Positions 1-16,473 of a DNA stretch of 27,316 nt are shown here, one piece after another; position 1 is the first letter of the stretch, and every line of letters starts with the position of its first letter. The stretch lies in the IMG/VR virus record IMGVR_UViG_2728369187_000003, one strand, 5' to 3'. Below the pieces are notes generated by a model. The model was not told where the DNA came from and did no database searches. It saw only the letters and a list, made by a program, of their open reading frames with translations. Origin of the DNA: a virus (taxonomy: Duplodnaviria > Heunggongvirae > Uroviricota > Caudoviricetes). The position numbers were made by a program, and so were the translations under genes.

Positions 1-1026
1 TTACTTGGAATATTTTCTTGGAATATTTTCAGGTAACGGGACATCAAGTGTTGGTGAAACTTTAACCTTCCTGTCATAGATTAGCACTTGCCCTTCGGTT
101 TTGTGACCAGAGAAAAGTTGCTTATCCCGGCTGCTTCCTTCATAGTCTGAAATTCCTTTCGCCTTCAGATCATGAAAGGTGAAGTCGGTTAAAATACCTG
201 AAATTTTTCCAGCACGATTTCTTGCATCTACCCACATTTCGTTAAAGCCTTTGTACATATATCGGTTGCCGTATTGATTGCTGATCACATAGGCAGATTT
301 TGGTAACTGTTTTGCTTTTTCGATCGCTGCCTGTAATCGTGGGCTCCATGCTTTTATCTGTTTTTTTCCGGTTTTCCCTTGCTGGATGAATATCCCGTCG
401 TTTCCAATCTGTTCCCATTTCAGCGATAACACATCGGAAACCCTCGCTGCACACAGATAGGCAATTTCCATTGCGATAAAAACAGGAAGAGGTGCAACGC
501 TTAATACTGCCTGGTATTCTTTGTCGGTTACATATCGTTCGCGGTTTTTGGCCTTGAATTTACTTACACCTGCACATGGGTTAGCCTTCACGTACCCTCG
601 CTCATACCCCCAACTGTAAACACGGGACATACTGCTTTTTTCATGGTTGGCTTGCGTTTTACTCTGCTCCCCTCTTTTGTCCATGTATCGACGGATGTGT
701 TCTGGTTTTATGGAATCCGCTGGTACCTTACCGAATACGGCAAGCAACTTTTTTTGATGTTGCAGATAATCTTTTTGTGTTCTTGGACTAAGGTCACTGT
801 AATAGGCGCTGGCGAGGAATTTTTCCCACAAGCGACCGAATGTCATTGCACGATCGCGATTATTTACAGTTTCCTCATACTTTTTCCATAAAGCAGCTAA
901 ACCATCCTTGATGGCGGTTAGTGTGACAGATTCTCTGGATGTTGGTTTCCATACATAACTATATTTATTTGGGTATACATTTGGAGGTAATTTTTCGTGT
1001 TCAGGATTTTTCCTTCGTCTTCCCAT
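1..1026 (-). CDS. int: Phage integrase, tyrosine recombinase (lambda Int-like)
   Basis: 341-aa ORF; N-terminus MGRRRKNPEHEKLPPN closely resembles the lambda Int N-terminus as I recall it; start ATG overlaps the stop of the upstream small ORF (ATGA); stop codon sits at window positions 1-3, so attL would lie just outside the window. Confidence 0.9.
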   Translation of the reverse strand: MGRRRKNPEHEKLPPNVYPNKYSYVWKPTSRESVTLTAIKDGLAALWKKYEETVNNRDRAMTFGRLWEKFLASAYYSDLSPRTQKDYLQHQKKLLAVFGKVPADSIKPEHIRRYMDKRGEQSKTQANHEKSSMSRVYSWGYERGYVKANPCAGVSKFKAKNRERYVTDKEYQAVLSVAPLPVFIAMEIAYLCAARVSDVLSLKWEQIGNDGIFIQQGKTGKKQIKAWSPRLQAAIEKAKQLPKSAYVISNQYGNRYMYKGFNEMWVDARNRAGKISGILTDFTFHDLKAKGISDYEGSSRDKQLFSGHKTEGQVLIYDRKVKVSPTLDVPLPENIPRKYSK

Positions 1027-4833: not shown

Positions 4834-4962
4834 TCAGCCGTTAGATTTTGCCGAGCTGGAAAGCGCCTGTTTAAACTCACTGAAGCTGAGAGCTTCTTCG
4901 CCTTCGGCAAGGCCTTCGAAGTATTCTTCGTAAGCCTTTTTCATGATTGTGTCGAAATCCAT
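4834..4962 (-). CDS. ydfB: YdfB-like small protein (42 aa), absent from the ORF track
   Basis: Minus-strand ORF MDFDTIMKKAYEEYFEGLAEGEEALSFSEFKQALSSSAKSNG*; ATG lies 1 nt after the ydfA stop; fits the ydfA-ydfB-ydfC order. Confidence 0.5.
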   Translation of the reverse strand: MDFDTIMKKAYEEYFEGLAEGEEALSFSEFKQALSSSAKSNG

Positions 4963-4963
4963 A

Positions 4964-5119
4964 TCACTCACCTGAGTTTCTTTCCAGCCAGCGACGGGCA
5001 CCATTTTCGGTTTTAAACGTTTTGCTTTTGGTATACGTCATCGCGGTGAATGTGCCGTCCTGGTTGGGAAACACGCCGTACACCAGAGATTCGTTGTTGC
5101 CAAGATCGATAGTATCCAT
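4964..5119 (-). CDS. ydfA: YdfA-like DUF1391-type small protein (51 aa)
   Basis: Internal Met of the 78-aa track ORF, preceded by GAGG 4 nt upstream, gives MDTIDLGNNESLVYGVFPNQDGTFTAMTYTKSKTFKTENGARRWLERNSGE; first gene after the PL-like promoter. Confidence 0.6.
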   Translation of the reverse strand: MDTIDLGNNESLVYGVFPNQDGTFTAMTYTKSKTFKTENGARRWLERNSGE

Positions 5120-5298
5120 GTTGACCTCATTTCCCCTTAACGCCGGGGTAGCGGAACAAAAACCTGCTGCATAGTTATTAAAGTTGAACCCTGCCGTCAT
5201 GTTCTTACGCCTCGGGCTGGCTACTTAACCCCTGACCACTGCCTGGTAACTCGAAGTATTGCCCTGCATTCTGTGGGGTGGGGTGAGGGAATGAATGA

Positions 5299-5347
5299 AG
5301 TTTAGAAAAATGAACTTTTCAGGTCAATGTTTTTTTATCAAAACATT
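5299..5347 (-). promoter_or_regulatory. PL-like leftward early promoter with overlapping palindromic operator
   Basis: On the minus strand TTGACC-N17-TAAACT; the palindrome AATGTTTT-N6-AAAACATT (plus 5326-5347) overlaps the -35 element; the same operator core recurs in the cI-cro intergenic region. Confidence 0.45.
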
Positions 5348-5411
5348 TTAAGCAGGCAGCTGTTAAGCCATCACCACGATGGCATACAGTTAATCAAATA
5401 GATGAGGTTGG

Positions 5412-6050
5412 TTAAATATCTTGTTGAATTTTAAAGCATACGCCCAATATGCAAGATAGATCATCCAGCATAATTGAAGGGTAGCGAGGATTCGTGGGGA
5501 CTAAAAGAATATCCGGCCCTTCTATCTCCAGTTTACGAATGACAGGTGTTGTGGTCCCTTTGGGTAAGGCAAGGACAATATTTCCTGGTTGTACGGTTCG
5601 ATCGGGATCAACAAAAACTGTTGAACCATTTGGGATGGAAACTCCCCCACCAGATGTTGACATACTGTCACTCTCTAGAACAACTGCAAAGGTATTGGCC
5701 GGGATTTCTCCGACAAGCTGCACACAAGAGGTTATTGAGGAATTTTTCATATAATCACTCCAGCTTGCTGCCTGCTGAAGTGATAGTAGCGGAACCGTTT
5801 TTATCGGCGGTAAAGATAGATCAAGCGAATCACCTGTATTTAACTCTCCTCCATTAAGAAGCCAATTTTCGTTTACTTTCAATATCTTTGCCAGTGAACT
5901 TATGTAACGCGAGGACGGCGCTCCTCCACCGTTCATCCATTGACTTACGGAGCCTTTTGATGCGCCAGTGGCATTGACAAGGTCTTTGCCTTTCAGGTTT
6001 AGCGCATGCATACGTTGGGTTATGCGTTCAGATATTGTTTGCTTGCTCAT
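5412..6050 (-). CDS. CI-like prophage repressor (N-terminal HTH, C-terminal S24 LexA-like autopeptidase)
   Basis: 212-aa ORF; N-terminal HTH region; C-terminal SDSM...IRKL...LVPTNPRYPSI parallels lambda CI GDSM...FKKL...LQPLNPQYPMI; no ribosome-binding site upstream of the ATG, which overlaps an operator (leaderless, PRM-like). Confidence 0.9.
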   Translation of the reverse strand: MSKQTISERITQRMHALNLKGKDLVNATGASKGSVSQWMNGGGAPSSRYISSLAKILKVNENWLLNGGELNTGDSLDLSLPPIKTVPLLSLQQAASWSDYMKNSSITSCVQLVGEIPANTFAVVLESDSMSTSGGGVSIPNGSTVFVDPDRTVQPGNIVLALPKGTTTPVIRKLEIEGPDILLVPTNPRYPSIMLDDLSCILGVCFKIQQDI

Positions 6051-6113
6051 GTTTTGATTTTAAAACACAGATGGTTTTGTTTCTTGACTTTCTTTGGTTT
6101 TGATTATTAAACT
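6049..6113. promoter_or_regulatory. OR-like operator cluster and PR-like rightward promoter
   Basis: ATGTTTT-N6-AAAACA palindrome at 6049-6067 overlapping the cI start; further GTTTT/AAAAC inverted motifs at 6062-6079 and 6097-6112; TTGACT (6084-6089)-N18-TAAACT (6108-6113) ahead of cro. Confidence 0.5.
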
Positions 6114-6141
6114 TTTGGCGTTCAGTTTTATGGAGCGACTT

Positions 6142-6372
6142 ATGAAAAAATCAGAAGTATTAGGCTATTTTGGCGGAGTTGTTAAAACAGCCGCAGCTCT
6201 AGGAACGTCAAAAACCACAGTCAGCATGTGGGGGGAAGAGGTTCCGTGGAAATGGGCGTTGCTAATTCAGGCAGTCACTGCCGGGGCGCTCAAATATGAG
6301 TTACACATACCGACGGTTGTCATTCCCGGTTCTGATCATAATCCGCCTTCTAACCAAGGGGGGGATTCATGA
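6142..6372 (+). CDS. Cro-like small HTH regulator
   Basis: 76 aa from the ATG at 6142, with GGAG 6 nt upstream; divergent from cI; helix-turn-helix-like segment VVKTAAALGTSKTTVSMW. Confidence 0.7.
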   Translation: MKKSEVLGYFGGVVKTAAALGTSKTTVSMWGEEVPWKWALLIQAVTAGALKYELHIPTVVIPGSDHNPPSNQGGDS

Positions 6373-6794
6373 AAATCAAGCATGAACACATCCGCATGGC
6401 GATGAATGCCTGGGCGCGTCCTGATGGCGAAAAAGTTCCAGCAGCTGGAATAACCCAGGCTTATTTTGAGTTGGGTATGACGTTTCCTGAACTGTATGAC
6501 GACAGCCATCCGGAAGCCCTGGCTCGCAATACCCAGAAAATTTTCCGCTGGGTAGAGAAAGACACCCCTGATGCAGTTGAAAAAATTCAGGCGTTGTTAC
6601 CAGCGATCGAAAAGGCAATGCCACCTTTGCTGGTGGCCAGAATGCGCAGCCACAGTTCAGCTTATTTTCGGGAGCTGGTGGAGACGCGGGAGCGATTGGT
6701 GAGAGACGCTGATGATTTTGTCGCAGTGGCAATCGCCGGTTTCAATCAGATGAACCGTGGTGGCCCGGCAGGAAATGCTGTGGCAGTACATTGA
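6369..6794 (+). CDS. YdaT-family-like protein in the cII position (function unknown)
   Basis: 141-aa ORF whose ATG overlaps the cro stop (ATGA); begins MKIKHEHI, which I recall for YdaT-like proteins that follow Cro-like YdaS; not verified. Confidence 0.45.
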   Translation: MKIKHEHIRMAMNAWARPDGEKVPAAGITQAYFELGMTFPELYDDSHPEALARNTQKIFRWVEKDTPDAVEKIQALLPAIEKAMPPLLVARMRSHSSAYFRELVETRERLVRDADDFVAVAIAGFNQMNRGGPAGNAVAVH

Positions 6795-6865
6795 CTGACA
6801 ATAGCCATATCGAATCGCTTCCGGCAACTCGTGAGTAAAAAGATTCGGTATCAGAAGAGGTGAGT

Positions 6866-7936
6866 ATGGCTAACGCTTGGCTCAGATTATGGCATGACAT
6901 GCCAAATGACCCTAAGTGGCGAACAATTGCCAGGGTGTCAGGGCAGCCAATTGCAACAGTGATGGCAGTGTATATCCACCTCCTGGTGAGCGCGTCACGA
7001 AATGTCACGCGAGGTCACATTGATGTCACGACAGAAGATTTGGCAAGTGCGCTCGACGTGACAGAAGAGGTAATTGATTCAATTTTGCAGACGATGCAGG
7101 GGCGGGTACTTGATGGTGATTTAATCACTGGATGGGAAAAACGCCAGGTTCTTAAAGAGGACAACGGCAATATTTCGCAAACCGCAAAATCTCCTGCAGA
7201 GCGCAAGAGGGCGCAGCGAGAGAGGGAAAGAAAGCGGGAACAAAATGGCGATTGTCACGGCGCGTCACGAAATGTCACGCACATGTCACGACGAGTCACG
7301 ACAGATAAAGATACAGATAAAGATACAGATCAAGAAGATCAAAACACTATGGTCCATGGCGTAAAAAACGCCACGAACCAGGCAGGGGATGTTCAGACCG
7401 TCAATCTTGGTCAGCCAGCAGGCACGACACCGGAAGCCGATTCAGCGTATGCGCTGAAAGCCGATTCGGGCGCTGTGCAGCAGGTGATGACCGCAAGGCC
7501 GGAGCAATCACACCAACTGCAGCAGCCTGAAGCCGATTCCGCCATTCAGCGGGAAGCCGATCGGGTAGTCCCGGAAAACACCGGGCAGCCTGTGGGACGA
7601 GTGGATTATCCGGATGTGTTCGAACAGGTCTGGCGGGAATACCCGTTGCGTGCTGGGGCAAACCCGAAGAAATCCGCTTTCAGTGCTTGGAAGGCCAGAT
7701 TACGCGAGGGGGTGTCACCAGAGGCCATGCTGGATGGCGTGAGGCGTTACGCAAGATACCTTGCGGCTACCGGGAAAACGGGAACGGAATTTGTTCAGCG
7801 AGCAACGACGTTTTTTGGACCGGACCGGAATTTTGAAAACCCCTGGCTGCTCCCGGTAAGCGGCACGAACAACCAGCGTTGTGTGAATCATATTTCTGAA
7901 CCGGATACCGAAATTCCACCGGGCTTCAGGGGGTAA
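6866..7936 (+). CDS. Replication initiator (O-like) with origin iterons inside the coding sequence
   Basis: 356 aa from the ATG at 6866 (GAGG 5 nt upstream); occupies the O position after cro and the cII-like gene; two internal GTCACG iteron arrays and an AT-rich tandem repeat lie inside it. Confidence 0.65.
   Translation: MANAWLRLWHDMPNDPKWRTIARVSGQPIATVMAVYIHLLVSASRNVTRGHIDVTTEDLASALDVTEEVIDSILQTMQGRVLDGDLITGWEKRQVLKEDNGNISQTAKSPAERKRAQRERERKREQNGDCHGASRNVTHMSRRVTTDKDTDKDTDQEDQNTMVHGVKNATNQAGDVQTVNLGQPAGTTPEADSAYALKADSGAVQQVMTARPEQSHQLQQPEADSAIQREADRVVPENTGQPVGRVDYPDVFEQVWREYPLRAGANPKKSAFSAWKARLREGVSPEAMLDGVRRYARYLAATGKTGTEFVQRATTFFGPDRNFENPWLLPVSGTNNQRCVNHISEPDTEIPPGFRG
6991..7030. repeat. 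Iteron array 1: four GTCAC(G/A) repeats at roughly 10-bp spacing
   Basis: GTCACG at 6994, 7004 and 7025, GTCACA at 7014; the first 21 nt are identical to the start of array 2. Confidence 0.7.
7251..7330. repeat. Iteron array 2 (five GTCACG repeats) followed by an AT-rich tandem repeat; candidate origin of replication
   Basis: GTCACG at 7254, 7264, 7274, 7285 and 7295, then gataaagataca repeated about 2.5 times at 7302-7330; the architecture parallels ori-lambda inside gene O. Confidence 0.65.
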
Positions 7937-7976
7937 GTGTTGATTTCTGGTCATGAGGTAATTTTCAGGAGGACTT

Positions 7977-8399
7977 GTGGCAAAAGTTTTTACACAAGAA
8001 GAGCGAGAAAAAATTAAAGGGCAGGTTGTTGAACTCGTACGCCAGAGTGGGCGTGAGACGTTACGGCAACTGGAAGTCAAAACAGGTGCGACAAGATATC
8101 TGATGAGCGTTCTCGCAAGAGAGCTGGTTGCCAGCGGCGATGTATACAACTCTGGTTACGGGTTATTCCCGTCTGAACAGGCGCGTAAGGACTGGCAAAA
8201 TGCCCGTAAAAAGCTCTCAAGGGCAAAGCTGAAGAAACCATCTGCGGTTGATCCGGACCTTATCTGGTCATTACCTGACGGAGAAATACGTCGCTACGAC
8301 AGGCGTCAGAACATAATCTGTCGCGAGTGCCGGAAGAGTGAAGTTATGCAGCGCATATTGTCGTTTTATCAGGGGGATGTTCGGTATTTATTGAAGTGA
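7977..8399 (+). CDS. Hypothetical protein (140 aa) downstream of the replication initiator
   Basis: GTG start with AGGAGG 4 nt upstream; no recognisable helicase-loader features; last gene before the AT-rich island. Confidence 0.4.
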   Translation: MAKVFTQEEREKIKGQVVELVRQSGRETLRQLEVKTGATRYLMSVLARELVASGDVYNSGYGLFPSEQARKDWQNARKKLSRAKLKKPSAVDPDLIWSLPDGEIRRYDRRQNIICRECRKSEVMQRILSFYQGDVRYLLK

Positions 8400-8684
8400 C
8401 GAGATTAAAGTGCATTAGTTCAGATGCAAATTGACATTTTGTGGCACAGGGTAGAGCTAGCGTGGTTGTCCGCTTTGTGTCAAGAGAGGACGTTCATCCA
8501 TAACTAATTGCTGATCAATACTCAGCAGCATTATGCCCATGTCGCTTTTATTTCACTTTCACTAATGATTGATTTTGGTTCTAGTAGAAGACATAATATT
8601 AGAATATGTATTTGCGTAAGAAATAATTAGTTTCCAATGCATTGGTTTAGTAGAGTGTTTAATAACATCAAGAGGTAGTTTTGG

Positions 8685-9218
8685 ATGACAACCTGGGTGG
8701 AAGTTGTTGATACGGCTGTGAAGATTGGATTTGGTGGTATAATAACGCTGACAGGTACATTTATTATTTCAAAAATGAATCACAAACATGAATTTGATAA
8801 AGATAAAAGTCGTCGCTATTATGATTCATTAGAATCTGTAAGCACTCAAATTGAGGATATGACACATATATCCTTACGCTATTGGGCTTTGATAATTGAA
8901 TGGGTTAGAAATAAGGAACAAAAGGGATTGGATCTTACCAGAGAAAGGCAAGAGGAGTTAAATAAAACAAAATTAGATTTATTTGACAATTTTAAAAGCT
9001 TGACAGTTGCAGAGTCGAAGCTTTTGCTTTTAGGTTTAACTGACACATCAGTTGCTTTAAGAGACTACGGTGATTATTTAAAAGCAATGCGGAGAAATTA
9101 TTATGATGGCAAACCTGATATTAAGGAGTCAGATCTTGAAAATGTAAGGGTTACGTTACTTTACAAACGTAAAGTCCTGTTTGATTTTTTGTCTAGGGAT
9201 TATAAAAAAGGAATATAG
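8685..9218 (+). CDS. Hypothetical membrane-anchored protein (177 aa), island gene A
   Basis: AT-rich codon usage; one N-terminal hydrophobic segment (VKIGFGGIITLTGTFIISKM) followed by a charged, probably helical region; AGAGG upstream. Confidence 0.55.
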   Translation: MTTWVEVVDTAVKIGFGGIITLTGTFIISKMNHKHEFDKDKSRRYYDSLESVSTQIEDMTHISLRYWALIIEWVRNKEQKGLDLTRERQEELNKTKLDLFDNFKSLTVAESKLLLLGLTDTSVALRDYGDYLKAMRRNYYDGKPDIKESDLENVRVTLLYKRKVLFDFLSRDYKKGI

Positions 9219-9595
9219 AATCATAGGTTTTAAGTTAAGGGATGCTATTGACTTCCTTTTCAGCAACCTAGCTTCTAGTTATGATGATAATTATAAATCT
9301 GAAGCTTAGTTCATCATAGTCATATTGGATTAGTAATGATATTTACTCGATGCTTCTAAGTTGTAATGAAAATGCTTACTATACGCTCATTGAAAACCTC
9401 ATGCCTCTCCCTTGATCGCTTGTGGCTGGAACGGACAAAACCACATTTTATATTCATTTTTGCTAGTGGTTTAATATAGCACTATATGCTTTTTATTTTG
9501 CTATGATTGATGTCTTAAGAATTCTATGAACATCTAAAATAGGTGATTAACATAACATCGTTGTTTTATAACAAGTAGAATAAGGAGTCAGTTTT

Positions 9596-10519
9596 ATGCC
9601 ATCACTAGATACTATAGTTTTAAACCTCCTAAGAGGGGCTGTTCCTGAGAATGCTGATGAACTTTGTCAGACCTGGAAGAGCTATAAACACACGGTCGAA
9701 CTTGCAGAGGATGCCCTAGGATCAACAATGAATGCAACTAGTAGGCGCATCGAGTTTGACTCTAAAACTATCGATTTCTTTTGGTTATTTGGGTTTAGTA
9801 CATGGTTTACGATTGAGACATATGCTCCAGCCCTAGTAAAAGCATGCTTACTAGGTGTGACGTTAGAGTCGGCTTTAGAATCTGATGAAGAACGTGGCCA
9901 ATTTGAACTAAATTATAAACAGCATTTGTATATTTCAAAGTCTTTGCTAAGCGTTGCGAATACGGCTGATATTACATGGCCTCAAGATATTCCTTTTCCA
10001 ACAGATGCGCGAGATAGTTTGAATAATATTCAAGAACAGGCTGTTTTTGATCTAGTAGCATTAGCATTGTCTTTTTCTATACTTCATGAGTATAAACATG
10101 TTCAAGCACGAGCCGAAGAAAAAAAACATGAAAATCCCCAAGAGAAGGATGAAGAAGAGTTAGCCTGTGACTCTTGGGCTCGTGAATATATAACTAAGGG
10201 CGTCGGAGTCTATGCTAAAAAAGCTGGGCATACCTATGAAGAGGTCATGCAAAAACGAGCAATGGGGATAACACTTGCCGCCTTTACTATACACGCTTTA
10301 ACATCAGATATCGATAAATGGGGTGGTGAAGAGTATCCATCTATAGCAGTAAGGATTCAAACAATGATAGGGGGGTACAACCTTTCAGATTCATCGCCCT
10401 TCTGGTGTTTTACAGCTTGTCTTCTCATCGCGGTGATGAGACAGGAAAACCGTAAGCTTGATTATAAAGCTACAACATATAAAGAGTTTGTTACTAGGCT
10501 CCTTTCGGAATTACACTAA
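9596..10519 (+). CDS. HExxH zinc-metallopeptidase-like protein (307 aa), island gene B
   Basis: TAAGGAG ribosome-binding site 8 nt upstream; HEYKH motif at residues 164-168 within FSILHEYKHVQ; a hairpin terminator follows. Confidence 0.6.
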   Translation: MPSLDTIVLNLLRGAVPENADELCQTWKSYKHTVELAEDALGSTMNATSRRIEFDSKTIDFFWLFGFSTWFTIETYAPALVKACLLGVTLESALESDEERGQFELNYKQHLYISKSLLSVANTADITWPQDIPFPTDARDSLNNIQEQAVFDLVALALSFSILHEYKHVQARAEEKKHENPQEKDEEELACDSWAREYITKGVGVYAKKAGHTYEEVMQKRAMGITLAAFTIHALTSDIDKWGGEEYPSIAVRIQTMIGGYNLSDSSPFWCFTACLLIAVMRQENRKLDYKATTYKEFVTRLLSELH

Positions 10520-10535
10520 ATAATTTTGACATAAT

Positions 10536-10572
10536 AATAGACAGATTAGAATGATATCTGTCTATTATTTGC
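10536..10572 (+). terminator. Hairpin terminator after island gene B
   Basis: Perfect 11-bp inverted repeat AATAGACAGAT / ATCTGTCTATT with a 9-nt loop, followed by a T-rich tail (ATTATTT). Confidence 0.5.
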
Positions 10573-10980
10573 ATTAGTCGTGACTTGATCTGACACATGG
10601 CTTTGAAAGATTAAGAGTTACTGGTATTGATATGGGGCCGAAGTGTTATACAATACAAGAGGTAATTCTCATATTCCATACTAACAATCCTATCATCAAA
10701 CACAACGCCGGTTACTTAAGGTGGCTGAGGAACTCAGCAACGTATCCGAAGCCAGCAAAGCCATGGTCCTTTCGCAGTAAGTTGCGTAAATAAGGTGTTT
10801 TTATCCCTTGAAGCATTCTACAAAGCCAGCTCCTCGCTCAAACAGACGTGCCTGTTCACCAATCTGCCCGCTTGGTATCAAGGGACGCCAGTAACGCGAT
10901 ACAGGCGATACAGGGTGAATTCCTTCCTTAACTGCCCTCACATCATCTTTAATAATAGTTTACCCTGATATAACGGATGA

Positions 10981-12360
10981 TCAGAAGTCCATCAGGTCAT
11001 CGAATTTCTGAGGTGGCTCTTGTTTTCGAACACTATCTCCCTGATGAATCTCCGTCTCACTTGTTTGGTATTTTACACCAGTAATTTTATGATAAGTCAT
11101 ACTGTTGGTTTTCAACAGTAGTGCATCATTTTTGTCATGCGAGGATGAAAATGAACCCATATGTCTCGGTTTTATTTGTTCCTCAACTATTAACTGAATT
11201 TCCGGAACAAAAGCATACTGGTCATCTTCGATGTGTTCATACATCTCAACATTATATCGGCGAGATTTATCTGCGGCATGCCTGACGCCGGAAGACTTAT
11301 TAAACAGAACGACATTATATCCTATCTCAGCATCCTCACCGTTGGCATCTACCTGGGTAGATTTAAAGCTGACACCATCAAGCTTAAATTTATTTCGGTC
11401 ACCTAGGTAATCGGCAACCACTTGGGTGATGAGGTAATCACTGTCCTGCCTTTTTCCAAAAGTAGGAAGCGTCAACTTACGGGAAAGCGTACTGAAAAAA
11501 ATCGCGCGCTCACTGGTTTTGCGAGTCTGAGGATCAAATTTACTACCTGAGCCGAAACTAATCGAGTCAAGGGCAGAAATGTCCAGCACTTTTAGCTCGC
11601 GTAACGGTACAAAACAGGCCGTTACTACAATACTGCCGACGGGCGGCCTTACTTCAGCAATTGCCAAATTCACTGAGGTTGCACCGTAAAATACTGAAAT
11701 CCCCTGTGCGTTCATACGGCCCGACCGAGCCAAAGTTGATGGGGGAGGTCCAAAATTTTTCTCGGGCTGCTCCAAGGCTTGCTTTACTTCCTCTTGGTCC
11801 TCAAAGACCCTTGCACGAAAAAGATGAACCTCATCAGTCAGAGTTTTTATCGGTGAATTACTGTCTCTGTTTTTTAGTTTATCGATATCACTGAAAAGTG
11901 AATCCAGGAAATCATTAACTTCACGGTTAAAATATCGTGTTTCTTTCATAAGGGAGTCAGTGGCTTTACTCCAGGTATGCGCAAGCTCTCCGCTATAGTG
12001 ATTTATGTGCCGATAAACAAACCCATCATTATACCGGATGTAGTCATAATCGTTATGCGGATTATATTCATCACAAAGAAATTCATAAATATCTTCAGCT
12101 ACGTCCCATTCGACGCCCAGTTCTCCGCAGATGACATCCTGCGCGCTATCACCGCGCCCGGAATCATAGATATCCTCATACATATCATAGTAGTACTCAA
12201 AAACCTCATTCATCATCTTGAGAATATATTTGAGGTGGATGTTTTTACGCTTCCTTTTGCAGTAAGAGCAAATCCGAACATTATTTCCGGTTTTTATTAT
12301 ATGCTGCATGACATATTTATCGTTCACGCATTTATGACAAATATACTTATCTTTCCACAT
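10981..12360 (-). CDS. Zinc-ribbon plus RES-like domain protein (459 aa), island gene C
   Basis: N-terminal CHKC...CSYC zinc-ribbon-like motif; central SGRMNAQGISVFYGATSVNLAIAEV fits the R-x9-Y-x10-E spacing I recall for RES-domain NAD-targeting toxins; convergent with gene B. Confidence 0.55.
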   Translation of the reverse strand: MWKDKYICHKCVNDKYVMQHIIKTGNNVRICSYCKRKRKNIHLKYILKMMNEVFEYYYDMYEDIYDSGRGDSAQDVICGELGVEWDVAEDIYEFLCDEYNPHNDYDYIRYNDGFVYRHINHYSGELAHTWSKATDSLMKETRYFNREVNDFLDSLFSDIDKLKNRDSNSPIKTLTDEVHLFRARVFEDQEEVKQALEQPEKNFGPPPSTLARSGRMNAQGISVFYGATSVNLAIAEVRPPVGSIVVTACFVPLRELKVLDISALDSISFGSGSKFDPQTRKTSERAIFFSTLSRKLTLPTFGKRQDSDYLITQVVADYLGDRNKFKLDGVSFKSTQVDANGEDAEIGYNVVLFNKSSGVRHAADKSRRYNVEMYEHIEDDQYAFVPEIQLIVEEQIKPRHMGSFSSSHDKNDALLLKTNSMTYHKITGVKYQTSETEIHQGDSVRKQEPPQKFDDLMDF

Positions 12361-12427
12361 TTTTTACCCACTCATCATCAGCTGATACAAGGTCACTTTC
12401 CTGCAATTTTATAATTAAATCAAGCAT
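12347..12427 (-). CDS. Candidate 26-aa upstream ORF overlapping the start of island gene C
   Basis: GGAGGGGG ribosome-binding site 8 nt upstream of the ATG; MLDLIIKLQESDLVSADDEWVKNVER*; its stop overlaps the gene C ATG. Confidence 0.3.
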   Translation of the reverse strand: MLDLIIKLQESDLVSADDEWVKNVER

Positions 12428-12706
12428 AAAAACCCCCTCCTCACCTCAATGCTTTCAGTGTAAAAATAATTAGTAATACGCTGTACTGGTAATAATTATG
12501 AACTTCCTCTTCTCGCTCAAAGCGGACTAGAAAGTTAGCTTGCGTCGGACTTGGCGTATTTAAAGAAGTGCTGGTGGTGACTGGTTGTTGTGTTCCATTT
12601 CTACAGAACAAAATCACAGAAACTATACCCAATAGTTGTATTGAATCACTGACGAGACAGCCTCATATTTATCAGGACTGGTGTACGTCCAATACAGGAG
12701 GTTGTG

Positions 12707-12796: not shown

Positions 12797-12897
12797 TTTT
12801 ATATTGGCGAGGTGACGTGAGTTAAGTAGAATTGCTGCGGGTGCTTGAGGCTATCTGCCTCAGGCATGAACACCAAAGGCAGATAGAGAAAAGCCCC

Positions 12898-14773
12898 AGT
12901 TAACATTACGCGTCCTGCAAGACGCTTAACATTAATCTGAGGCCAATTTCATGCTAGACACATGTAGGTTAGCCTCTTACGTGCCGAAAGGCAAGGAGAA
13001 GCAGGCTAGTGTTAACACCAAGCTGTAATGTCCCCTTTGAACCATTCTAAAATGTCCCCAGACAATTCTCTGGGGGATTTTTCATGATCAAAGAGACTGT
13101 TACGATGAGTCATAAGGAACTCCACCGACTTCAGATTATTCAGGAGTCAATTAATCGACATATTACTCAGGAACAAGCTGCGGCACGCATTGGCATTTCT
13201 ATTCGGCAGGTTAAACGTCTGGTGCAACGGTATAGAAATGAAGGGCCTTCTGGTCTGGTTTCCCACCGACGTGGAAAGCGTCCTAATAATTCCTTTTCTA
13301 CTGAATTCAGAGCAACAGTAATTTCACTCCTCAAAGGCCGTTACGCTGATTTTGGACCTACGTTTGCGTGCGAAAAATTGCGCGAGATACACGGTTTATC
13401 TTTATCCGTTGAAACTCTCAGAAAGTGGATGATAGAAGAGGGGTTATGGCGTGAACGCCGTCGTAAAATTGCCCGTATATATCAACGCCGCATGCGACGA
13501 CCATCTTACGGTGAACTGATCCAGATTGATGGCTCACCTCATGACTGGTTTGAAAATCGAGGCCCCAGATGTACACTGATCGTTTTCATTGATGATGCCA
13601 CCAGTGCGTTGATGGCGTTGCGTTTTGTGCCTGCTGAAACAACCCGGGCTTACATGGAAACCCTCCGGGGTTACCTTAATGATCATGGCGTACCGCTCGC
13701 TCTCTACTCTGATAGACACAGTATATTCAGGGTAAATAACCCAGAGCGGGAAGGTGAGCTGACCCAGTTCACTCGTGCGATAAAGACACTGGGCATCGAG
13801 CCAATCCATGCCAACAGCCCGCAGGCAAAAGGGCGGGTAGAGCGCGCCAATCAGACACTACAGGACAGGCTGGTCAAAGAAATGCGGCTTCAGAATATCA
13901 GTGATATTGAAACAGCAAATGCATGGTTGCCGACCTTTATTGAAGCCTATAACAACCGGTTCGCTACGTCGCCTCGTACTACTGATAATGCTCATCTTGA
14001 TGAGCACCATTCTGAAGAGGAACTGGGTTATATCTTCAGCCTACAGGCGAAGCGCGTTCTGTCTAAAAATCTCACTTTCCAGTACAAAAGCAGTGCGTTT
14101 CAGGTACGCAGTGAGGGCCGGGGATATCGACTTAGGCATTCGGTTGTTACTGTATGCGAGAACTTTGACGGTGAAATTAACGTTCTGTATGACGGGAAAG
14201 CGCTGGGCTGGGAAAAGTATGTTGATGGCCCGGAGCCTATACCACTGGATGATGAAAAGAGTGTCCATGAACGAGTGGATAATGCCCGTATTGATTTACG
14301 CTCAAAATACTATGTTAAACCTAAAGCTGACCATCCCTGGCTTACGCGCCGAACGCAAAGTCATCAGCAAGTTAAGCCCCCGAAGTTACCTAAAAAGAAG
14401 CCTGATCCCGATAAAAAAGATTGAAACCAAGATCGATTCGGTTGAGTGCATATCCATTCATAGGGTAGATTCTTAAGTCGCGTTTCTGGTGTTCATTTTC
14501 GGGTGGTTTGTTACTTGTTTTACCGGGGATATGCCAGAAACGCGCTGAGTCAGTCTGGGCGGTGCGCGTAATGAGGCGTTATGGTAAATAGCCTATGCTA
14601 ATGTCCGCTAAGAGCAAGAAGCGGAAGTTGGCAGTTTTGTGGACTGTCCCCACAAAAGTGACTACAGAAATAGTTGCAATTCATAATTGATCATGGGTTG
14701 TCAGTTAAACTCGTGGCGATTTAAATAGACTAATTGGGAGTGCGTCCATTACTTATATCTTGTAATGTTAACT
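12898..14773 (+). mobile_element. Insertion sequence carrying a DDE transposase (ends uncertain)
   Basis: The transposase gene is flanked by a 12-bp inverted match, AGTTAACATTAC at 12898-12909 and its reverse complement at 14762-14773; hairpin-forming inverted repeats sit inside both arms; no direct repeats found. Confidence 0.4.
13084..14424 (+). CDS. DDE transposase with N-terminal HTH (IS481/ISNCY-like, family not resolved)
   Basis: 446-aa ORF; N-terminal HTH-like region (ITQEQAAARIGISIRQVKRLV), central integrase-core-like region (IQIDGSPHDW...LIVFIDDATS...) and a basic C-terminal tail. Confidence 0.75.
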   Translation: MIKETVTMSHKELHRLQIIQESINRHITQEQAAARIGISIRQVKRLVQRYRNEGPSGLVSHRRGKRPNNSFSTEFRATVISLLKGRYADFGPTFACEKLREIHGLSLSVETLRKWMIEEGLWRERRRKIARIYQRRMRRPSYGELIQIDGSPHDWFENRGPRCTLIVFIDDATSALMALRFVPAETTRAYMETLRGYLNDHGVPLALYSDRHSIFRVNNPEREGELTQFTRAIKTLGIEPIHANSPQAKGRVERANQTLQDRLVKEMRLQNISDIETANAWLPTFIEAYNNRFATSPRTTDNAHLDEHHSEEELGYIFSLQAKRVLSKNLTFQYKSSAFQVRSEGRGYRLRHSVVTVCENFDGEINVLYDGKALGWEKYVDGPEPIPLDDEKSVHERVDNARIDLRSKYYVKPKADHPWLTRRTQSHQQVKPPKLPKKKPDPDKKD

Positions 14774-14820
14774 ATCAGAAATGATACAAAGATAATATGT
14801 CTTTAAAGAAAAGGCTGATG

Positions 14821-14846
14821 GCGAAAAGTGGCCCGATGAGGGCCAC
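14821..14846 (-). terminator. Rho-independent terminator downstream of flxA
   Basis: GTGGCCC-GATGA-GGGCCAC hairpin followed on the minus strand by TTTTCGCC. Confidence 0.55.
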
Positions 14847-14860
14847 AATACGGCTGTCAC

Positions 14861-15193
14861 TTAGACGTAAATATCAATGGTGCCAGCGGTATTTGTATCG
14901 TCTTTTTTCTCTTCTTTTTTATCAGGCTGAACTGTCGCGTCTTCATTCTTTTTCTCTGCCTGCTGCCTTAACAACTGCTCCAGTTGAGCCCAGAGGCTTT
15001 CAATTTGCTTCTGTACCAATGCAGCCATTTCTTTTTTCTGCTGTGTCGTCATCCCCTCTTCCGATGAGATTTTCACAAGCTTTTCAGTCAGCACCTGAAT
15101 TTGTCTTGTGATTTTGGCTATTTCTGATGTTCCTTCCGGGGCGGAGTTGTTTGAAATAACGGTTGAGGTATTTCCCTGAATTGTGACAGACAT
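14861..15193 (-). CDS. flxA: FlxA-like protein (110 aa)
   Basis: 110-aa ORF; AAGGAG ribosome-binding site; preceded by a near-consensus sigma-28 promoter; matches the Qin flxA position and length from memory. Confidence 0.7.
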   Translation of the reverse strand: MSVTIQGNTSTVISNNSAPEGTSEIAKITRQIQVLTEKLVKISSEEGMTTQQKKEMAALVQKQIESLWAQLEQLLRQQAEKKNEDATVQPDKKEEKKDDTNTAGTIDIYV

Positions 15194-15216
15194 AGATTTC
15201 TCCTTTTAAAAAAGCA

Positions 15217-15243
15217 CTATCGGCATGCACAAAAAAATCTTTA
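15217..15243 (-). promoter_or_regulatory. Sigma-28 (FliA) type promoter for flxA
   Basis: Minus strand reads TAAAGATT-N-GCCGATAG with a 15-nt spacer between TAAA and GCCGATA, against the consensus TAAA-N15-GCCGATAA. Confidence 0.6.
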
Positions 15244-15395
15244 ATCGTATTTCTTGTGTCATTAATTGTTTGATGTTCAGATTGTTTTCCTCGCGGGCTG
15301 GCGCGCCTCAGAAAGTAAAGCTTGTTGACAGGGGTAAACGTTCGGCAATAATTTTCTGCCGCATGCGGGTGTTGCATAAAACGTGTTACGTTCCT

Positions 15396-15701
15396 TTATC
15401 GACAGGTCAGGTCACCGCTCACCCGCCGACGAGAAAGCAACACTGACATGCTAAAGCAAAAAATAGATGAATAAGTTGAGTTGTGCATATGTAGCCTGAC
15501 CGTCACAAAGTATATGGTGTCTGTACCAGTAAGATGATGGCCGGACTCTTTAAAAACGAGCTGACCTGCACAATACAGGATGGACTTAGCAATGGCTGCT
15601 CCTGGCAGAAAGCGGACAGTGATCACCGTTCTTACGACTACTTTCTGACTTCCTTCGTGACTTGCCCTAAGCATGTTGTAGTGCGATACTTGTAATGACA
15701 T
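15396..15701 (-). CDS. YdfV-like hypothetical ORF (101 aa)
   Basis: Length and position between relB and flxA match the K-12 ydfV annotation as I recall it; no other support. Confidence 0.3.
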   Translation of the reverse strand: MSLQVSHYNMLRASHEGSQKVVVRTVITVRFLPGAAIAKSILYCAGQLVFKESGHHLTGTDTIYFVTVRLHMHNSTYSSIFCFSMSVLLSRRRVSGDLTCR

Positions 15702-15714
15702 TTGTAATTACAAG
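15662..15714 (+). promoter_or_regulatory. relBE promoter and operator
   Basis: TTGCCC-N17-GATACT followed by the palindromic CTTGTAATGACATTTGTAATTACAAG, overlapping the -10 element and just upstream of the relB ribosome-binding site. Confidence 0.6.
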
Positions 15715-15725
15715 AGGTGTAAGAC

Positions 15726-15965
15726 ATGGGTAGCATTAACCTGCGTATTGACGATGAACTTAAAGCGCGTTCTTACGCCGCGCTTGAAAAAATGGGTGTA
15801 ACTCCTTCTGAAGCGCTTCGTCTCATGCTCGAGTATATCGCTGACAATGAACGCTTGCCGTTCAAACAGACACTCCTGAGTGATGAAGATGCTGAACTTG
15901 TGGAGATAGTGAAAGAACGGCTTCGTAATCCTAAGCCAGTACGTGTGACGCTGGATGAACTCTGA
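15726..15965 (+). CDS. relB: RelB antitoxin
   Basis: 79 aa MGSINLRIDDELKARSYAALEKMGVTPSEALRLMLEYIADNERLPFKQ..., near-identical to E. coli RelB from memory; stop overlaps the relE start. Confidence 0.95.
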   Translation: MGSINLRIDDELKARSYAALEKMGVTPSEALRLMLEYIADNERLPFKQTLLSDEDAELVEIVKERLRNPKPVRVTLDEL

Positions 15966-16252
15966 TGGCGTATTTTCTGGATTTTGACGAGCGGGCACTA
16001 AAGGAATGGCGAAAGCTGGGCTCGACGGTACGTGAACAGTTGAAAAAGAAGCTGGTTGAAGTACTTGAGTCACCCCGGATTGAAGCAAACAAGCTCCGTG
16101 GTATGCCTGATTGTTACAAGATTAAGCTCCGGTCTTCAGGCTATCGCCTTGTATACCAGGTTATAGACGAGAAAGTTGTCGTTTTCGTGATTTCTGTTGG
16201 GAAAAGAGAACGCTCGGAAGTATATAGCGAGGCGGTCAAACGCATTCTCTGA
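15965..16252 (+). CDS. relE: RelE mRNA interferase toxin
   Basis: 95 aa MAYFLDFDERALKEWRKLGSTVREQLKKKLVEVLESPRIEANKLRGMPDCYKIKLRSSGYRLVYQVIDEKVVVFVISVGKRE..., matching RelE from memory. Confidence 0.95.
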   Translation: MAYFLDFDERALKEWRKLGSTVREQLKKKLVEVLESPRIEANKLRGMPDCYKIKLRSSGYRLVYQVIDEKVVVFVISVGKRERSEVYSEAVKRIL

Positions 16253-16323
16253 ACCAAAGCATGACATCTCTGTTTCGCACCGAAGGTGACACTTCTGCTT
16301 TGCGTTGACAGGAGAAGCAGGCT

Positions 16324-16473
16324 ATGAAGCAGCAAAAGGCGATGTTAATCGCCCTGATCGTCATCTGTTNNNNNNNNNNNNNNNNNNNNNNNNNNNNNNN
16401 NNNNNNNNNNNNNNNNNNNNNNNNNNNNNNNNNNNNNNNNNNNNNNNNNNNNNNNNNNNNNNNNNNNNNNNNN
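16324..16473 (+). CDS. hokD: Hok-family toxin (hokD/relF-like), interrupted by an N-run
   Basis: Begins MKQQKAMLIALIVIC, the Hok N-terminus, then runs into the N-run; the true 3' end is not visible and the 66-aa track ORF is an artifact of the gap. Confidence 0.7.
16370..16473. other. Run of 104 N (assembly gap or masked sequence)
   Basis: Directly visible; lies inside the hok-like gene. Confidence 1.

What the first reader, a model, noticed from the sequence alone, without database searches (positions are those of the whole stretch)
8685..9218. Membrane-anchored 177-aa protein as first gene of the island
It has a single N-terminal hydrophobic segment followed by a charged, probably helical cytoplasmic region. 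Placed about 380 bp upstream of the HExxH gene on the same strand, it could be a sensor or membrane effector partner. Function cannot be assigned from sequence.
Basis: inference. Interest (0 to 1): 0.45.

Follow-up and report, generated by a model that had tools for sequence, protein, structure and literature searches.

The report
Stand-alone membrane protein beside Lit
The 177-aa gene is real and encodes a conserved membrane-anchored four-helix-bundle protein of unknown function. Elsewhere its family travels alone, often as a one-gene integron cassette, so it is probably a self-sufficient accessory (possibly anti-phage) gene rather than an obligatory partner of the neighbouring Lit protease.

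Summary
**Observation: confirmed.** The ORF 8685-9218 (+) exists and has a good ribosome-binding site. It is under strong purifying selection (dN/dS 0.05-0.10). It has one marginally hydrophobic N-terminal segment followed by an all-helical domain; AlphaFold gives pLDDT 89 and a four-helix bundle.

**Family.** It belongs to an unnamed family of about 1,070 clusters at 50% identity. Nearly all listed members are 170-197 aa with one match spanning the protein. No Pfam, NCBIfam, PHROG or PDB-sequence search gave a significant match.

**Interpretation: only partly supported.**
- A 2.16-kb A+Lit module (8485-10643) recurs in four different mobile-element contexts in E. coli, Klebsiella and Citrobacter.
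- None of the 79 loci from other species carries Lit or RES.
- None of 37 more distant Lit loci carries A.
- Salmonella and Aeromonas pair A with unrelated genes, and a Lit at 67% identity lacks A.

**New finding.** A is a one-gene integron cassette in many gammaproteobacteria. An attC site follows the stop codon in 20 of 77 loci, against 1 of 895 control ORFs. In Psychrobacter it is fixed between ampD and murJ.

**Best reading.** A is an autonomous inner-membrane protein (N terminus out, C terminus in) whose unusually conserved TM helix is functional. It has been recruited into enterobacterial anti-phage hotspots. An anti-phage role is plausible but unproven. Interest is moderate.

The parts
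8685..9218 (+). Gene A: 177-aa protein of an unnamed, conserved family (TM helix plus four-helix bundle)
   Evidence: ORF; homologues; dN/dS 0.05-0.10; AlphaFold2 pLDDT 89; no Pfam, PHROG, NCBIfam or PDB-sequence match.
8712..8768 (+). Codons 10-28: Gly/Thr-rich hydrophobic segment, the predicted N-out/C-in transmembrane helix. Together with the invariant D9, K13, G15 and G17 it is the most conserved stretch of the family.
   Evidence: Kyte-Doolittle maximum 1.56 and K+R 0.06 (N-flank) against 6.1 (C-flank). Invariant columns. D[TS]A[VI]KIGLG was picked as the most conserved peptide.
8787..9209 (+). Codons ~35-175: predicted cytoplasmic antiparallel four-helix bundle, continuous with the TM helix
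8670..8675 (+). Shine-Dalgarno-like AAGAGG, 9 nt upstream of the ATG
   Evidence: Read directly from the sequence.
8569..8597 (+). Candidate sigma-70 promoter (TTGATT-17-CATAAT) inside the upstream region shared with Klebsiella and Citrobacter
   Evidence: Consensus scan (a pattern match only). 8485-8684 is 81% identical to Klebsiella and aligned.
8485..10643 (+). Mobile two-gene module A + 378-bp spacer + Lit, found with the same end points in Klebsiella and Citrobacter elements
   Evidence: blastn gives 83.7% over 2,194 bp (L082, L112) and 81.7% over 2,192 bp (L183). Coding parts are 88-90% identical and non-coding parts 72-81%.
9596..10519 (+). Gene B: Lit-family (Peptidase_U49, HExxH) phage-exclusion protease homologue
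   Evidence: Pfam PF10463 at 3.7e-07; PADLOC Lit at 1.3e-18; NCBIfam PRK09672 at 2.2e-54 but below the equivalog cut-off.
10533..10569 (+). Perfect 14-bp hairpin followed by TTTG just after the Lit stop codon: a terminator-like end of the module. No comparable hairpin follows gene A.
   Evidence: Inverted-repeat search; conserved in Klebsiella and Citrobacter in the alignment.
10981..12360 (-). Gene C: 459-aa RES-domain protein with a HEPN/RES N-terminal domain. Part of the E. coli island but not of the A+Lit module.
   Evidence: Pfam RES at 5.2e-14. Absent next to A in Klebsiella, Citrobacter and Salmonella.
8468..12527 (.). Three-gene low-GC island (A, Lit, RES) inserted downstream of the DUF977 gene of a Qin/Rac-like prophage
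   Evidence: 99.1% identity over 4,078 bp to L176, which is a different context. GC is 0.33-0.41 against about 0.5 in the flanks. Only 4 of 5,426 complete E. coli genomes carry it. E. coli 042 holds other cargo at the same site.

Best explanation
**What it is.** Gene A encodes a small bitopic inner-membrane protein. A short acidic N-terminus faces outward. A Gly/Thr-rich transmembrane helix follows, with invariant Asp9, Lys13, Gly15 and Gly17. That helix runs without a break into a cytoplasmic four-helix bundle.

**How it is inherited.** A is a self-contained one-gene unit. Its relatives occur as single-gene integron cassettes in Vibrio-, Alteromonas-, Pseudomonas- and Xanthomonad-type chromosomal integrons, as a fixed chromosomal gene in Psychrobacter, and as cargo of prophages and satellite-like islands in Enterobacteriaceae. 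In enterobacteria it became physically linked to a Lit-type protease gene. The pair now moves as a 2.16-kb module between known anti-phage cargo hotspots.

**Shown.** The gene is real, the family exists, the fold prediction is confident, A is independent of Lit and RES, it has cassette status, and the A+Lit module is mobile.

**Inferred.**
- Topology.
- The TM helix is the working part rather than a mere anchor. It would work either by self-association in the membrane (small-xxx-small packing) or by docking onto a conserved host membrane protein, with the bundle acting as the regulatory or sensing part.
- The selective benefit on mobile elements is protection against phage (abortive infection or exclusion at the membrane), acting in parallel with Lit and RES rather than through them.
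For: **Real and constrained**
- (dN/dS 0.05-0.10).

**Fold and topology**
-.

**The TM segment is the most conserved part**
-. D9, K13 and G17 stay invariant down to 21% overall identity.

**Autonomy**
- Outside Psychrobacter almost every locus has a different upstream and downstream gene, with heterogeneous Pfam content.
- Neither Lit nor RES was found in any of the 79 loci from other species (Lit by phmmer and profile, RES by phmmer).

**Integron cassettes**
- Arrays of attC repeats flank the gene in L179, L010, L011, L012, L019 and L097.
- Canonical TAAC...GTTA hairpins start at or a few bases after the stop codon.
- 20 of 77 loci are positive, against 1 of 895 control ORFs.
- The same 90% cluster is shared by V. 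cholerae, V. parahaemolyticus and V. mimicus.

**Defence-type surroundings in enterics**
- Lit and RES in the window.
- PDC-S31 (DUF2971) in a Klebsiella AlpA/DUF927 island.
- An AbiGi-like neighbour in Aeromonas.
- A P2-like prophage that also carries AbiTii.
- A variable cargo site downstream of DUF977.

**Literature prior**
- About 10-18% of V. cholerae integron cassettes of unknown function protect against phage. Most are single genes, and some are membrane proteins (bioRxiv 10.1101/2024.07.02.601686; bioRxiv 10.64898/2026.03.17.712381).
Against: - No experiment bears on this family.
- PADLOC gives only a chance-level hit (CBASS '2TM effector', E = 0.004, 14.6 bits).
- Only 9 viral contigs in IMG/VR carry a relative, and the INPHARED phage records carry none.
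- In Psychrobacter the gene is a stable chromosomal gene between ampD and murJ in 13-14 species. That looks more like envelope physiology than a shuffled defence gene.
- Acinetobacter relatives sit next to uvrA.
- The hydrophobic segment is marginal (1.56) and contains a lysine, so membrane insertion itself is a prediction.
- The four-helix bundle is a generic fold and carries no mechanistic information.
- Repeated co-transfer with Lit could mean a functional tie that family-wide statistics cannot exclude.
Confidence: 0.55

Rival explanations
1. A and Lit form a genuine two-gene system in Enterobacteriaceae. A would tether, gate or sense for the Lit protease at the inner membrane, or add a membrane-damaging arm to Lit's EF-Tu cleavage. 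This is essentially the first reader's idea, restricted to this clade.
For: - The module has identical end points in four unrelated contexts, despite 16-18% nucleotide divergence and different flanking genes on both sides.
- The two genes share a strand, with A first.
- There is a clean terminator-like hairpin after Lit but none after A, so read-through is possible.
- Both genes are under purifying selection: A 0.10, Lit 0.36.
- From my own recollection of Kao & Snyder 1988, e14 Lit was originally described as membrane-associated. I did not check this here.
Against: - Each family lives without the other almost everywhere.
- The next Lit clade (67% identity, same length) lacks A.
- The next A clade (82% identity, Salmonella) lacks Lit, and homology breaks exactly at A's stop codon.
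- A 378-bp spacer containing a promoter-like site (9552-9581) separates the genes. The spacer is the least conserved part of the module's interior (75%).
- e14 Lit needs only Gol and EF-Tu in vitro (PMC3014915).
- Two genes 0.4 kb apart can co-transfer simply because they are close.
Confidence: 0.2
2. A is a cell-envelope or physiological membrane protein, for example linked to peptidoglycan recycling or membrane stress. It occasionally hitch-hikes on cassettes and mobile elements and has nothing to do with phage.
For: - Psychrobacter shows fixed synteny of ampD-like amidase, a 35-bp gap, A, then murJ in 13-14 species. By my recollection of the E. coli ampDE operon, which I did not check here, this is the slot that membrane protein AmpE fills in E. 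coli.
- Many loci in Acinetobacter, Acidobacteriota, Verrucomicrobiota and Bacteroidota have ordinary housekeeping neighbours.
- The structural neighbours are four-helix-bundle sensor domains.
Against: - Distribution is patchy. Only 4 of 5,426 complete E. coli genomes carry the A+Lit segment of the island.
- The gene shows integron-cassette mobility.
- It sits in low-GC cargo islands next to abortive-infection genes in enterics.
- No peptidoglycan-related neighbour was seen outside Psychrobacter.
Confidence: 0.17
3. A, Lit and RES together form one three-gene defence system.
For: The three genes move together as a 4.06-kb block at 99% identity between the prophage and island L176.
Against: - RES is on the opposite strand.
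- It is replaced by DUF2971 / PDC-S31 in Klebsiella and by other genes in Citrobacter.
- No RES was found by phmmer in any of the other 79 A loci.
- The 99% identity shows a very recent transfer, not long-term linkage.
Confidence: 0.05
4. The ORF is a chance reading frame or a decaying pseudogene in AT-rich DNA.
For: The island is AT-rich (GC 0.33), which favours long spurious ORFs.
Against: - More than 1,000 homologous clusters were found. Nearly all of the 150 listed are close to full length.
- dN/dS is 0.05-0.10.
- There is a good ribosome-binding site.
- The fold prediction is confident.
Confidence: 0.01

Closest known systems
Single-gene integron cassettes, including the anti-phage cassettes of Vibrio sedentary chromosomal integrons (Darracq et al., bioRxiv 10.1101/2024.07.02.601686; also 10.64898/2026.03.17.712381)
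   Same: - Relatives of A are one-ORF cassettes bounded by attC sites within long arrays.
- They are small and lack an annotated domain.
- Some reported anti-phage cassettes are likewise small membrane proteins with no known domain, for example 'Brigantia'.
   Different: - The window copy has no attC site and no integron. It sits in a prophage island, probably with its own promoter.
- No family member is known to have been tested. I could not compare sequences with the published cassettes.
- In the cited study only about 10-18% of unknown cassettes were anti-phage.
Lit (e14) Gol-activated EF-Tu protease exclusion system
   Same: A is physically linked, on the same strand, to a Lit-family gene in a mobile module in E. 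coli, Klebsiella and Citrobacter.
   Different: - A is not homologous to Lit.
- Classical Lit acts with Gol and EF-Tu only (PMC3014915).
- A is absent from all more distant Lit loci.
Four-helix-bundle sensor domains of chemoreceptors and histidine kinases (Tar/Tsr, NarX/NarQ, TorS, PcaY)
   Same: - As in those receptors, the first bundle helix is continuous with a TM helix.
   Different: - Sequence identity is 4-13%, there is no Pfam match, and Foldseek E is at least 0.17.
- There is no second TM helix and no output domain.
- Charge bias places the bundle in the cytoplasm, not the periplasm.
- The up-down four-helix bundle is a generic fold; designed bundles score equally well.
Small membrane-anchored prophage exclusion or abortive-infection proteins and membrane effectors of defence systems (e.g. 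lactococcal Sie2009, lambda RexB, CBASS 2TM effectors). This is a functional analogy from my own knowledge.
   Same: - A is a small protein with an N-terminal TM helix.
- It is encoded as a moron-like gene, apparently with its own promoter, in a prophage cargo site next to abortive-infection genes.
   Different: - There is no sequence relationship. The only PADLOC hit, to a CBASS 2TM effector model, is at chance level (E = 0.004).
- A has one hydrophobic segment, not two or four.
- No cyclase or other sensor gene is adjacent.
AmpE (inner-membrane protein encoded downstream of ampD)
   Same: In Psychrobacter the A homologue lies directly downstream of ampD and upstream of murJ. By my recollection of the E. 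coli ampDE operon, this is the slot AmpE fills there.
   Different: - No sequence similarity was detected.
- From my own knowledge, AmpE is larger and polytopic.
- The synteny is confined to one genus.

Membership tests
Obligate partner of Lit (two-gene Lit-associated system) | Homologues of A co-occur with Lit-family genes across the family | tested here: not met
   No Lit was found in the 79 species-level A loci within +/-8 kb, by phmmer or by a Lit profile at E up to 10. Co-occurrence appears only in the enterobacterial clade with A at 91% identity or more.
Obligate partner of Lit (two-gene Lit-associated system) | Lit homologues carry an A-family gene upstream | tested here: not met
   Only 3 of 60 Lit loci have A, all with Lit at 83% identity or more. 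37 loci with at least 1 kb of upstream sequence lack it. Lit at 67% identity in a P2-like prophage lacks it.
Obligate partner of Lit (two-gene Lit-associated system) | Conserved gene order, strand and co-transfer within the clade | tested here: met
   The same 2.16-kb module occurs in four contexts.
RES-associated system (gene C) | Co-occurrence of A homologues with RES-domain genes | tested here: not met
   RES is next to A only in E. coli. It is absent in Klebsiella, Citrobacter, Salmonella and all other loci.
Integron gene cassette | An attC recombination site (R''-L''...L'-R' imperfect hairpin, TAAC...GTTA cores) directly 3' of the ORF | tested here: not met
   In the window itself no attC-like site follows the stop codon. 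For the family the feature is met: 20 of 77 loci against 1 of 895 control ORFs, and the hairpins are shown. The window copy is therefore a cassette-derived family member, not a cassette.
Integron gene cassette | Location inside an array of cassettes separated by related attC repeats | tested here: not met
   The window is a lambdoid prophage island. Relatives L179, L010, L011, L012, L019 and L097 lie inside arrays of 6-23 attC-type repeats.
CBASS-type 2TM membrane effector (PADLOC PDLC00699) | Significant match to the model, two TM helices, and an adjacent cyclase | tested here: not met
   E = 0.004, 14.6 bits, over 59 residues outside the TM region. There is one hydrophobic segment and no cyclase nearby.
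4HB_MCP / periplasmic four-helix-bundle sensor domain | Sequence-family match, a bundle flanked by two TM helices and exposed to the periplasm | tested here: not met
   No Pfam match even at E = 10 across 36 members. There is a single TM segment, and charge bias places the bundle in the cytoplasm. Only the fold is similar.
Any curated protein family (Pfam-A, NCBIfam, PHROGs, PDB sequences) | Score above the family threshold | tested here: not met
   One UniRef label, 'DUF4760', on relative P0020 was not reproduced by hmmscan at E up to 1.
Anti-phage defence gene | Protection against phage when expressed | not testable with these tools
   Only context is available: Lit, RES, PDC-S31, AbiGi-like and AbiTii neighbours.

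The most novel reading that the evidence does not exclude
The family is a new single-gene, membrane-acting anti-phage (abortive-infection or exclusion) protein. It is spread through integron cassettes and through prophage and satellite hotspots. The invariant Asp/Lys/Gly-rich TM helix would form or gate a membrane lesion, or block DNA entry, under control of the cytoplasmic four-helix bundle. In enterobacteria it would be stacked with Lit as a two-layer module.
Probability: 0.3. Interest if true: 0.6.

Novelty: new member of a known kind. Interest (0 to 1): 0.42.

Why it matters
**For this finding.** The work removes a tempting but largely wrong reading, that A is the sensor or effector partner of Lit. 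It replaces that reading with a testable one.

**For the family.** It defines an unnamed family of about 1,000 clusters with a confident fold and an unusually conserved TM helix. It also shows the family belongs to the integron cassette pool, where single-gene anti-phage functions have recently been found at appreciable frequency.

**Why it is a good test object.**
- It is 177 aa and a single gene.
- It has clear point-mutation targets: D9, K13, G15 and G17.
- It offers natural comparisons: A alone, Lit alone, and A+Lit.

**If it protects against phage,** it adds a compact membrane-acting defence gene and links integron cassettes to enterobacterial prophage and satellite hotspots.

**If it does not,** the ampD-A-murJ synteny in Psychrobacter points to an envelope role worth following.

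Tried and rejected
**Family and structure searches that gave nothing useful**
- Pfam, PHROGs, NCBIfam and PADLOC on A and on 36 relatives gave no usable hit.
- PDB sequence profile search: best E = 0.22.
- Foldseek against BFVD and PDB: nothing with E below 0.1.
- The AlphaFold database libraries were not available.
- tblastn against INPHARED phages found no match.
- The 'DUF4760' label on one UniRef relative was not reproduced.

**Searches for a partner gene**
- Conserved neighbours were sought by clustering everything within 4 kb of A. Only Psychrobacter synteny emerged.
- Immediate up- and downstream genes are nearly all singletons.
- Large upstream genes in distant loci turned out to be unrelated housekeeping proteins such as UvrA, a GGDEF-EAL protein and xanthine dehydrogenase.

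**The A-Lit spacer and the window**
- The 378-bp spacer has no Rfam match, no conserved small ORF and no convincing terminator.
- No attC remnant was found in the window.

**Methods and literature**
- My first attC pattern (strict RYYYAAC / GTTRRRY) was too strict and missed real sites. It was replaced by TAAC/GTTA cores with a complementarity score and a control set.
- A literature search by accession (WP_021575734) found nothing.
- The published lists of anti-phage cassettes could not be compared by sequence.

**Rejected readings**
- Chance ORF.
- Three-gene A-Lit-RES system.
- Periplasmic sensor half-receptor, because the charge bias points the other way.
Full report
**1. Setting**

The window is a Qin/Rac-type lambdoid prophage of E. 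coli. It carries:
- an integrase (4-1026, minus strand) and an exonuclease;
- a cI-like repressor (5415-6050, minus strand);
- a replication region and a DUF977 / Ren-like gene (7977-8399);
- further along, flxA, relBE, DUF968, Q, lysozyme and a DUF2514 lysis-type gene.

GC content drops from about 0.5 to 0.33-0.41 between 8.4 and 12.9 kb. That low-GC stretch holds three genes:
- A (8685-9218, plus strand);
- a Lit / Peptidase_U49 homologue (9596-10519, plus strand);
- a 459-aa RES-domain protein (10981-12360, minus strand).

Only 4 of 5,426 complete E. coli genomes carry the A+Lit segment of the island. About 940 share the backbone up to roughly 8494. E. coli 042 has unrelated cargo at the same place. 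The site downstream of DUF977 is therefore a cargo hotspot.

**2.

- The ORF is as described, with an AAGAGG site 9 nt upstream of the ATG.
- It has 68 homologous 90%-identity clusters by single-sequence search.
- It has 1,068 50%-identity clusters by profile search. Nearly all of the 150 listed are 160-197 aa with a single match over the whole length; the rest are short fragments and one 276-aa protein.
- dN/dS is 0.10 (E. coli against Klebsiella) and 0.05 (against Salmonella). For Lit it is 0.36.
- The only hydrophobic segment is residues ~10-28. It is marginal (Kyte-Doolittle 1.56) and Gly/Thr-rich.
- Family-wide, the N-flank has almost no K/R (0.06) and the C-flank has 6.1. This predicts N-out/C-in.
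- AlphaFold2 (pLDDT 89) predicts one long helix, 4-80, running from the TM segment into an antiparallel four-helix bundle.
- No curated family matches.
- The N-terminal motif D-T-A-V-K-I-G-L-G is the most conserved part of the protein. D9, K13 and G17 are invariant even in an alignment reaching 21% identity. That is unusual for a simple membrane anchor.

**3. Is A a partner of Lit or RES?**

*Close range: yes.*
- The segment 8485-10643 (A, 378-bp spacer, Lit) is 84% identical to a Klebsiella michiganensis segment inside an AlpA/DUF927-primase (P4-satellite-like) island. The next gene there is DUF2971 / PDC-S31, not RES.
- The segment 8489-10643 is 82% identical to a Citrobacter segment in a different lambdoid prophage.
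- The whole 8468-12527 island is 99% identical to a segment in a non-prophage island, L176.
- Coding parts are better conserved (88-90%) than the spacer and flanks (72-81%).
- A perfect 14-bp hairpin follows Lit, and nothing comparable follows A.

*Longer range: the link disappears.*
- Lit and RES were searched for in the ORFs of all 79 species-level A loci (+/-8 kb), using single-sequence phmmer for both and a profile for Lit. They were found only in the window and its E. coli copies.
- Of 60 Lit loci from viral and metagenome contigs, only the three enterobacterial ones (Lit at 83% identity or more) have A. 37 others with at least 1 kb of upstream sequence do not.
- Many of those others sit in a different conserved block: [~308 aa][~475 aa][Lit][167 aa].
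- A Lit at 67% identity lies in a P2-like prophage beside an Mrr_cat gene, without A.
- Salmonella A (82% identical) is followed, after about 400 bp, by an unrelated 181-aa gene. DNA homology to the window ends at A's stop codon.
- Aeromonas A (62% identical) is followed by an AbiGi-like gene.
- e14 Lit is known to need only the Gol peptide and EF-Tu (PMC3014915).

It is not supported for RES.

**4. What the family is genetically**

Outside Psychrobacter, nearly every locus has different neighbours on both sides. Their domain content is heterogeneous. Much of this variability is explained by integron cassettes.

- In L179 the gene (5001-5534) lies between VCR-like 128-nt repeats at 4863-4986 and 5531-5656, inside an array with TA cassettes.
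- L010 (Alteromonas), L011, L012 and L019 (Pseudomonas) and L097 (Vibrio) show the same pattern. Their arrays hold 6-23 attC-type repeats.
- The sequences after the stop codon fold, on the bottom strand, into canonical R''-L''/L'-R' hairpins with TAAC...GTTA cores. The TAAC often overlaps the TAA stop.
- With a simple score, 20 of 77 testable loci are positive, against 1 of 895 control ORFs. Several weaker ones (L004, L011, L017, L018, L180, L181) also look real.
- One 90%-identity cluster is shared by V. cholerae, V. parahaemolyticus and V. mimicus, as expected for a circulating cassette.

Cassettes are normally self-sufficient one-gene units, so A very probably works on its own. The nearest relatives of the enterobacterial clade (58-62% identity: Kangiella, Photobacterium, Neptunomonas, Alteromonas and the P0019 cassette-array locus L179) have attC-like sites at the stop codon. 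A Vibrio relative (L097) has one about 25 nt downstream. This suggests the enterobacterial gene was recruited from the cassette pool, acquired about 200 bp of conserved upstream DNA with a promoter-like site (8569-8597), and became linked to Lit.

In Psychrobacter the gene is instead fixed between an ampD-like amidase (35-bp gap) and murJ in 13-14 species.

**5. Mechanism**

*Shown or strongly predicted:* a small membrane-anchored protein with a cytoplasmic four-helix bundle, and an invariant polar/glycine signature in the TM helix.

*Inferred:*
- The TM helix is the active element. It would work by self-association through small-residue packing, or by docking on a conserved host membrane protein.
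- The bundle regulates it.
- On mobile elements the benefit is most likely anti-phage.

The anti-phage inference rests on two things. First, the enterobacterial copies sit in cargo sites of prophages and a satellite-like island, next to Lit, RES, PDC-S31, AbiGi-like and AbiTii genes. Second, 10-18% of unknown Vibrio cassettes tested were anti-phage, mostly as single genes.

Against it:
- there is no PADLOC match;
- the gene is rare on phage genomes;
- the synteny in Psychrobacter and the uvrA neighbourhood in Acinetobacter look core-like.

I put about 0.75 on 'autonomous membrane protein, not an obligate Lit/RES partner', and about 0.3-0.35 on 'anti-phage'.

**6. Comparison and novelty**

A is not a member of any named family. 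It resembles, in kind, the small single-gene accessory membrane proteins found in integron cassettes and prophage hotspots. It is therefore best called a new member of a known kind, whose function is still to be shown. Interest is moderate. It is a clean, cheap experimental target, but one of many uncharacterised cassette families.

Noticed in passing
L014, L021, L027 and others (Psychrobacter loci), gene at about 8001-8520 of each locus: In 13-14 Psychrobacter species the A homologue is fixed between an ampD-like Amidase_2 gene (35-bp gap, same strand) and murJ. By my recollection, ampE lies downstream of ampD in E. coli. This hints at an envelope-related role.
   Followed up: partly
L100, L101, L115, L128-L132, L137, L156 and others (metagenome and viral loci with Lit at 50-56% identity): Distant 307-aa Lit homologues lie in a conserved same-strand block: [~308 aa][~475 aa][Lit]. 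A downstream 167-aa protein with an N-terminus of the MPVYFIGE...IKIGVAKNI type is present in 28 loci. The two upstream genes form a cluster spanning 23 loci. This may be an unrecognised multi-gene Lit context.
   Followed up: no
window 12839-16369: A sok antisense RNA lies at 12839-13005 (Rfam 112.8 bits). Homology to E. coli KV7 stops at 13008, the start of hokD. An HTH+rve transposase ORF (13084-14424), flxA (14864-15193, minus strand), relB (15726-15962) and a RelE/ParE-like toxin (15965-16249) follow. The hokD start sequence then reappears at 16310-16369. This looks like an IS-associated rearrangement of the Qin-type relBE-hokD region.
   Followed up: partly
window 8400-8494 and L182 (E. 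coli 042) 5001-9000: The site immediately downstream of the DUF977 gene is a variable cargo site. About 940 E. coli genomes share the backbone up to roughly 8494. E. coli 042 then carries unrelated hypothetical genes, an AlpA fragment and a short integrase gene.
   Followed up: partly
L185-L187 (P2-like prophage fragments) and L096: A Lit homologue at 67% identity sits beside an Mrr_cat nuclease gene between P2 tail genes, without A. Another P2-like prophage carries AbiTii at a similar place, and a 50%-identical A homologue near its lysis and head genes.
   Followed up: no
L008 7462-9359 (Oleispira MAG): There are two copies of the A homologue (7462-7995 and 8826-9359), each next to a 208-aa ORF. 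This could be a tandem duplication of a cassette pair or an assembly repeat.
   Followed up: no
window 10981-12360 (minus strand): The RES protein is unusually long (459 aa). It has an N-terminal Cys-rich stretch (CHKC...CSYC) and a weak HEPN/RES-NTD1 match. No adjacent Xre-type antitoxin gene was seen.
   Followed up: no
L082 2467-5721 (Klebsiella island): Two genes (814 aa and 214 aa) directly upstream of the A+Lit module have no Pfam or PADLOC match. They are conserved in all eight Klebsiella-type loci shown, next to a Phd-like antitoxin. They are possibly further uncharacterised cargo of the satellite-like island.
   Followed up: partly
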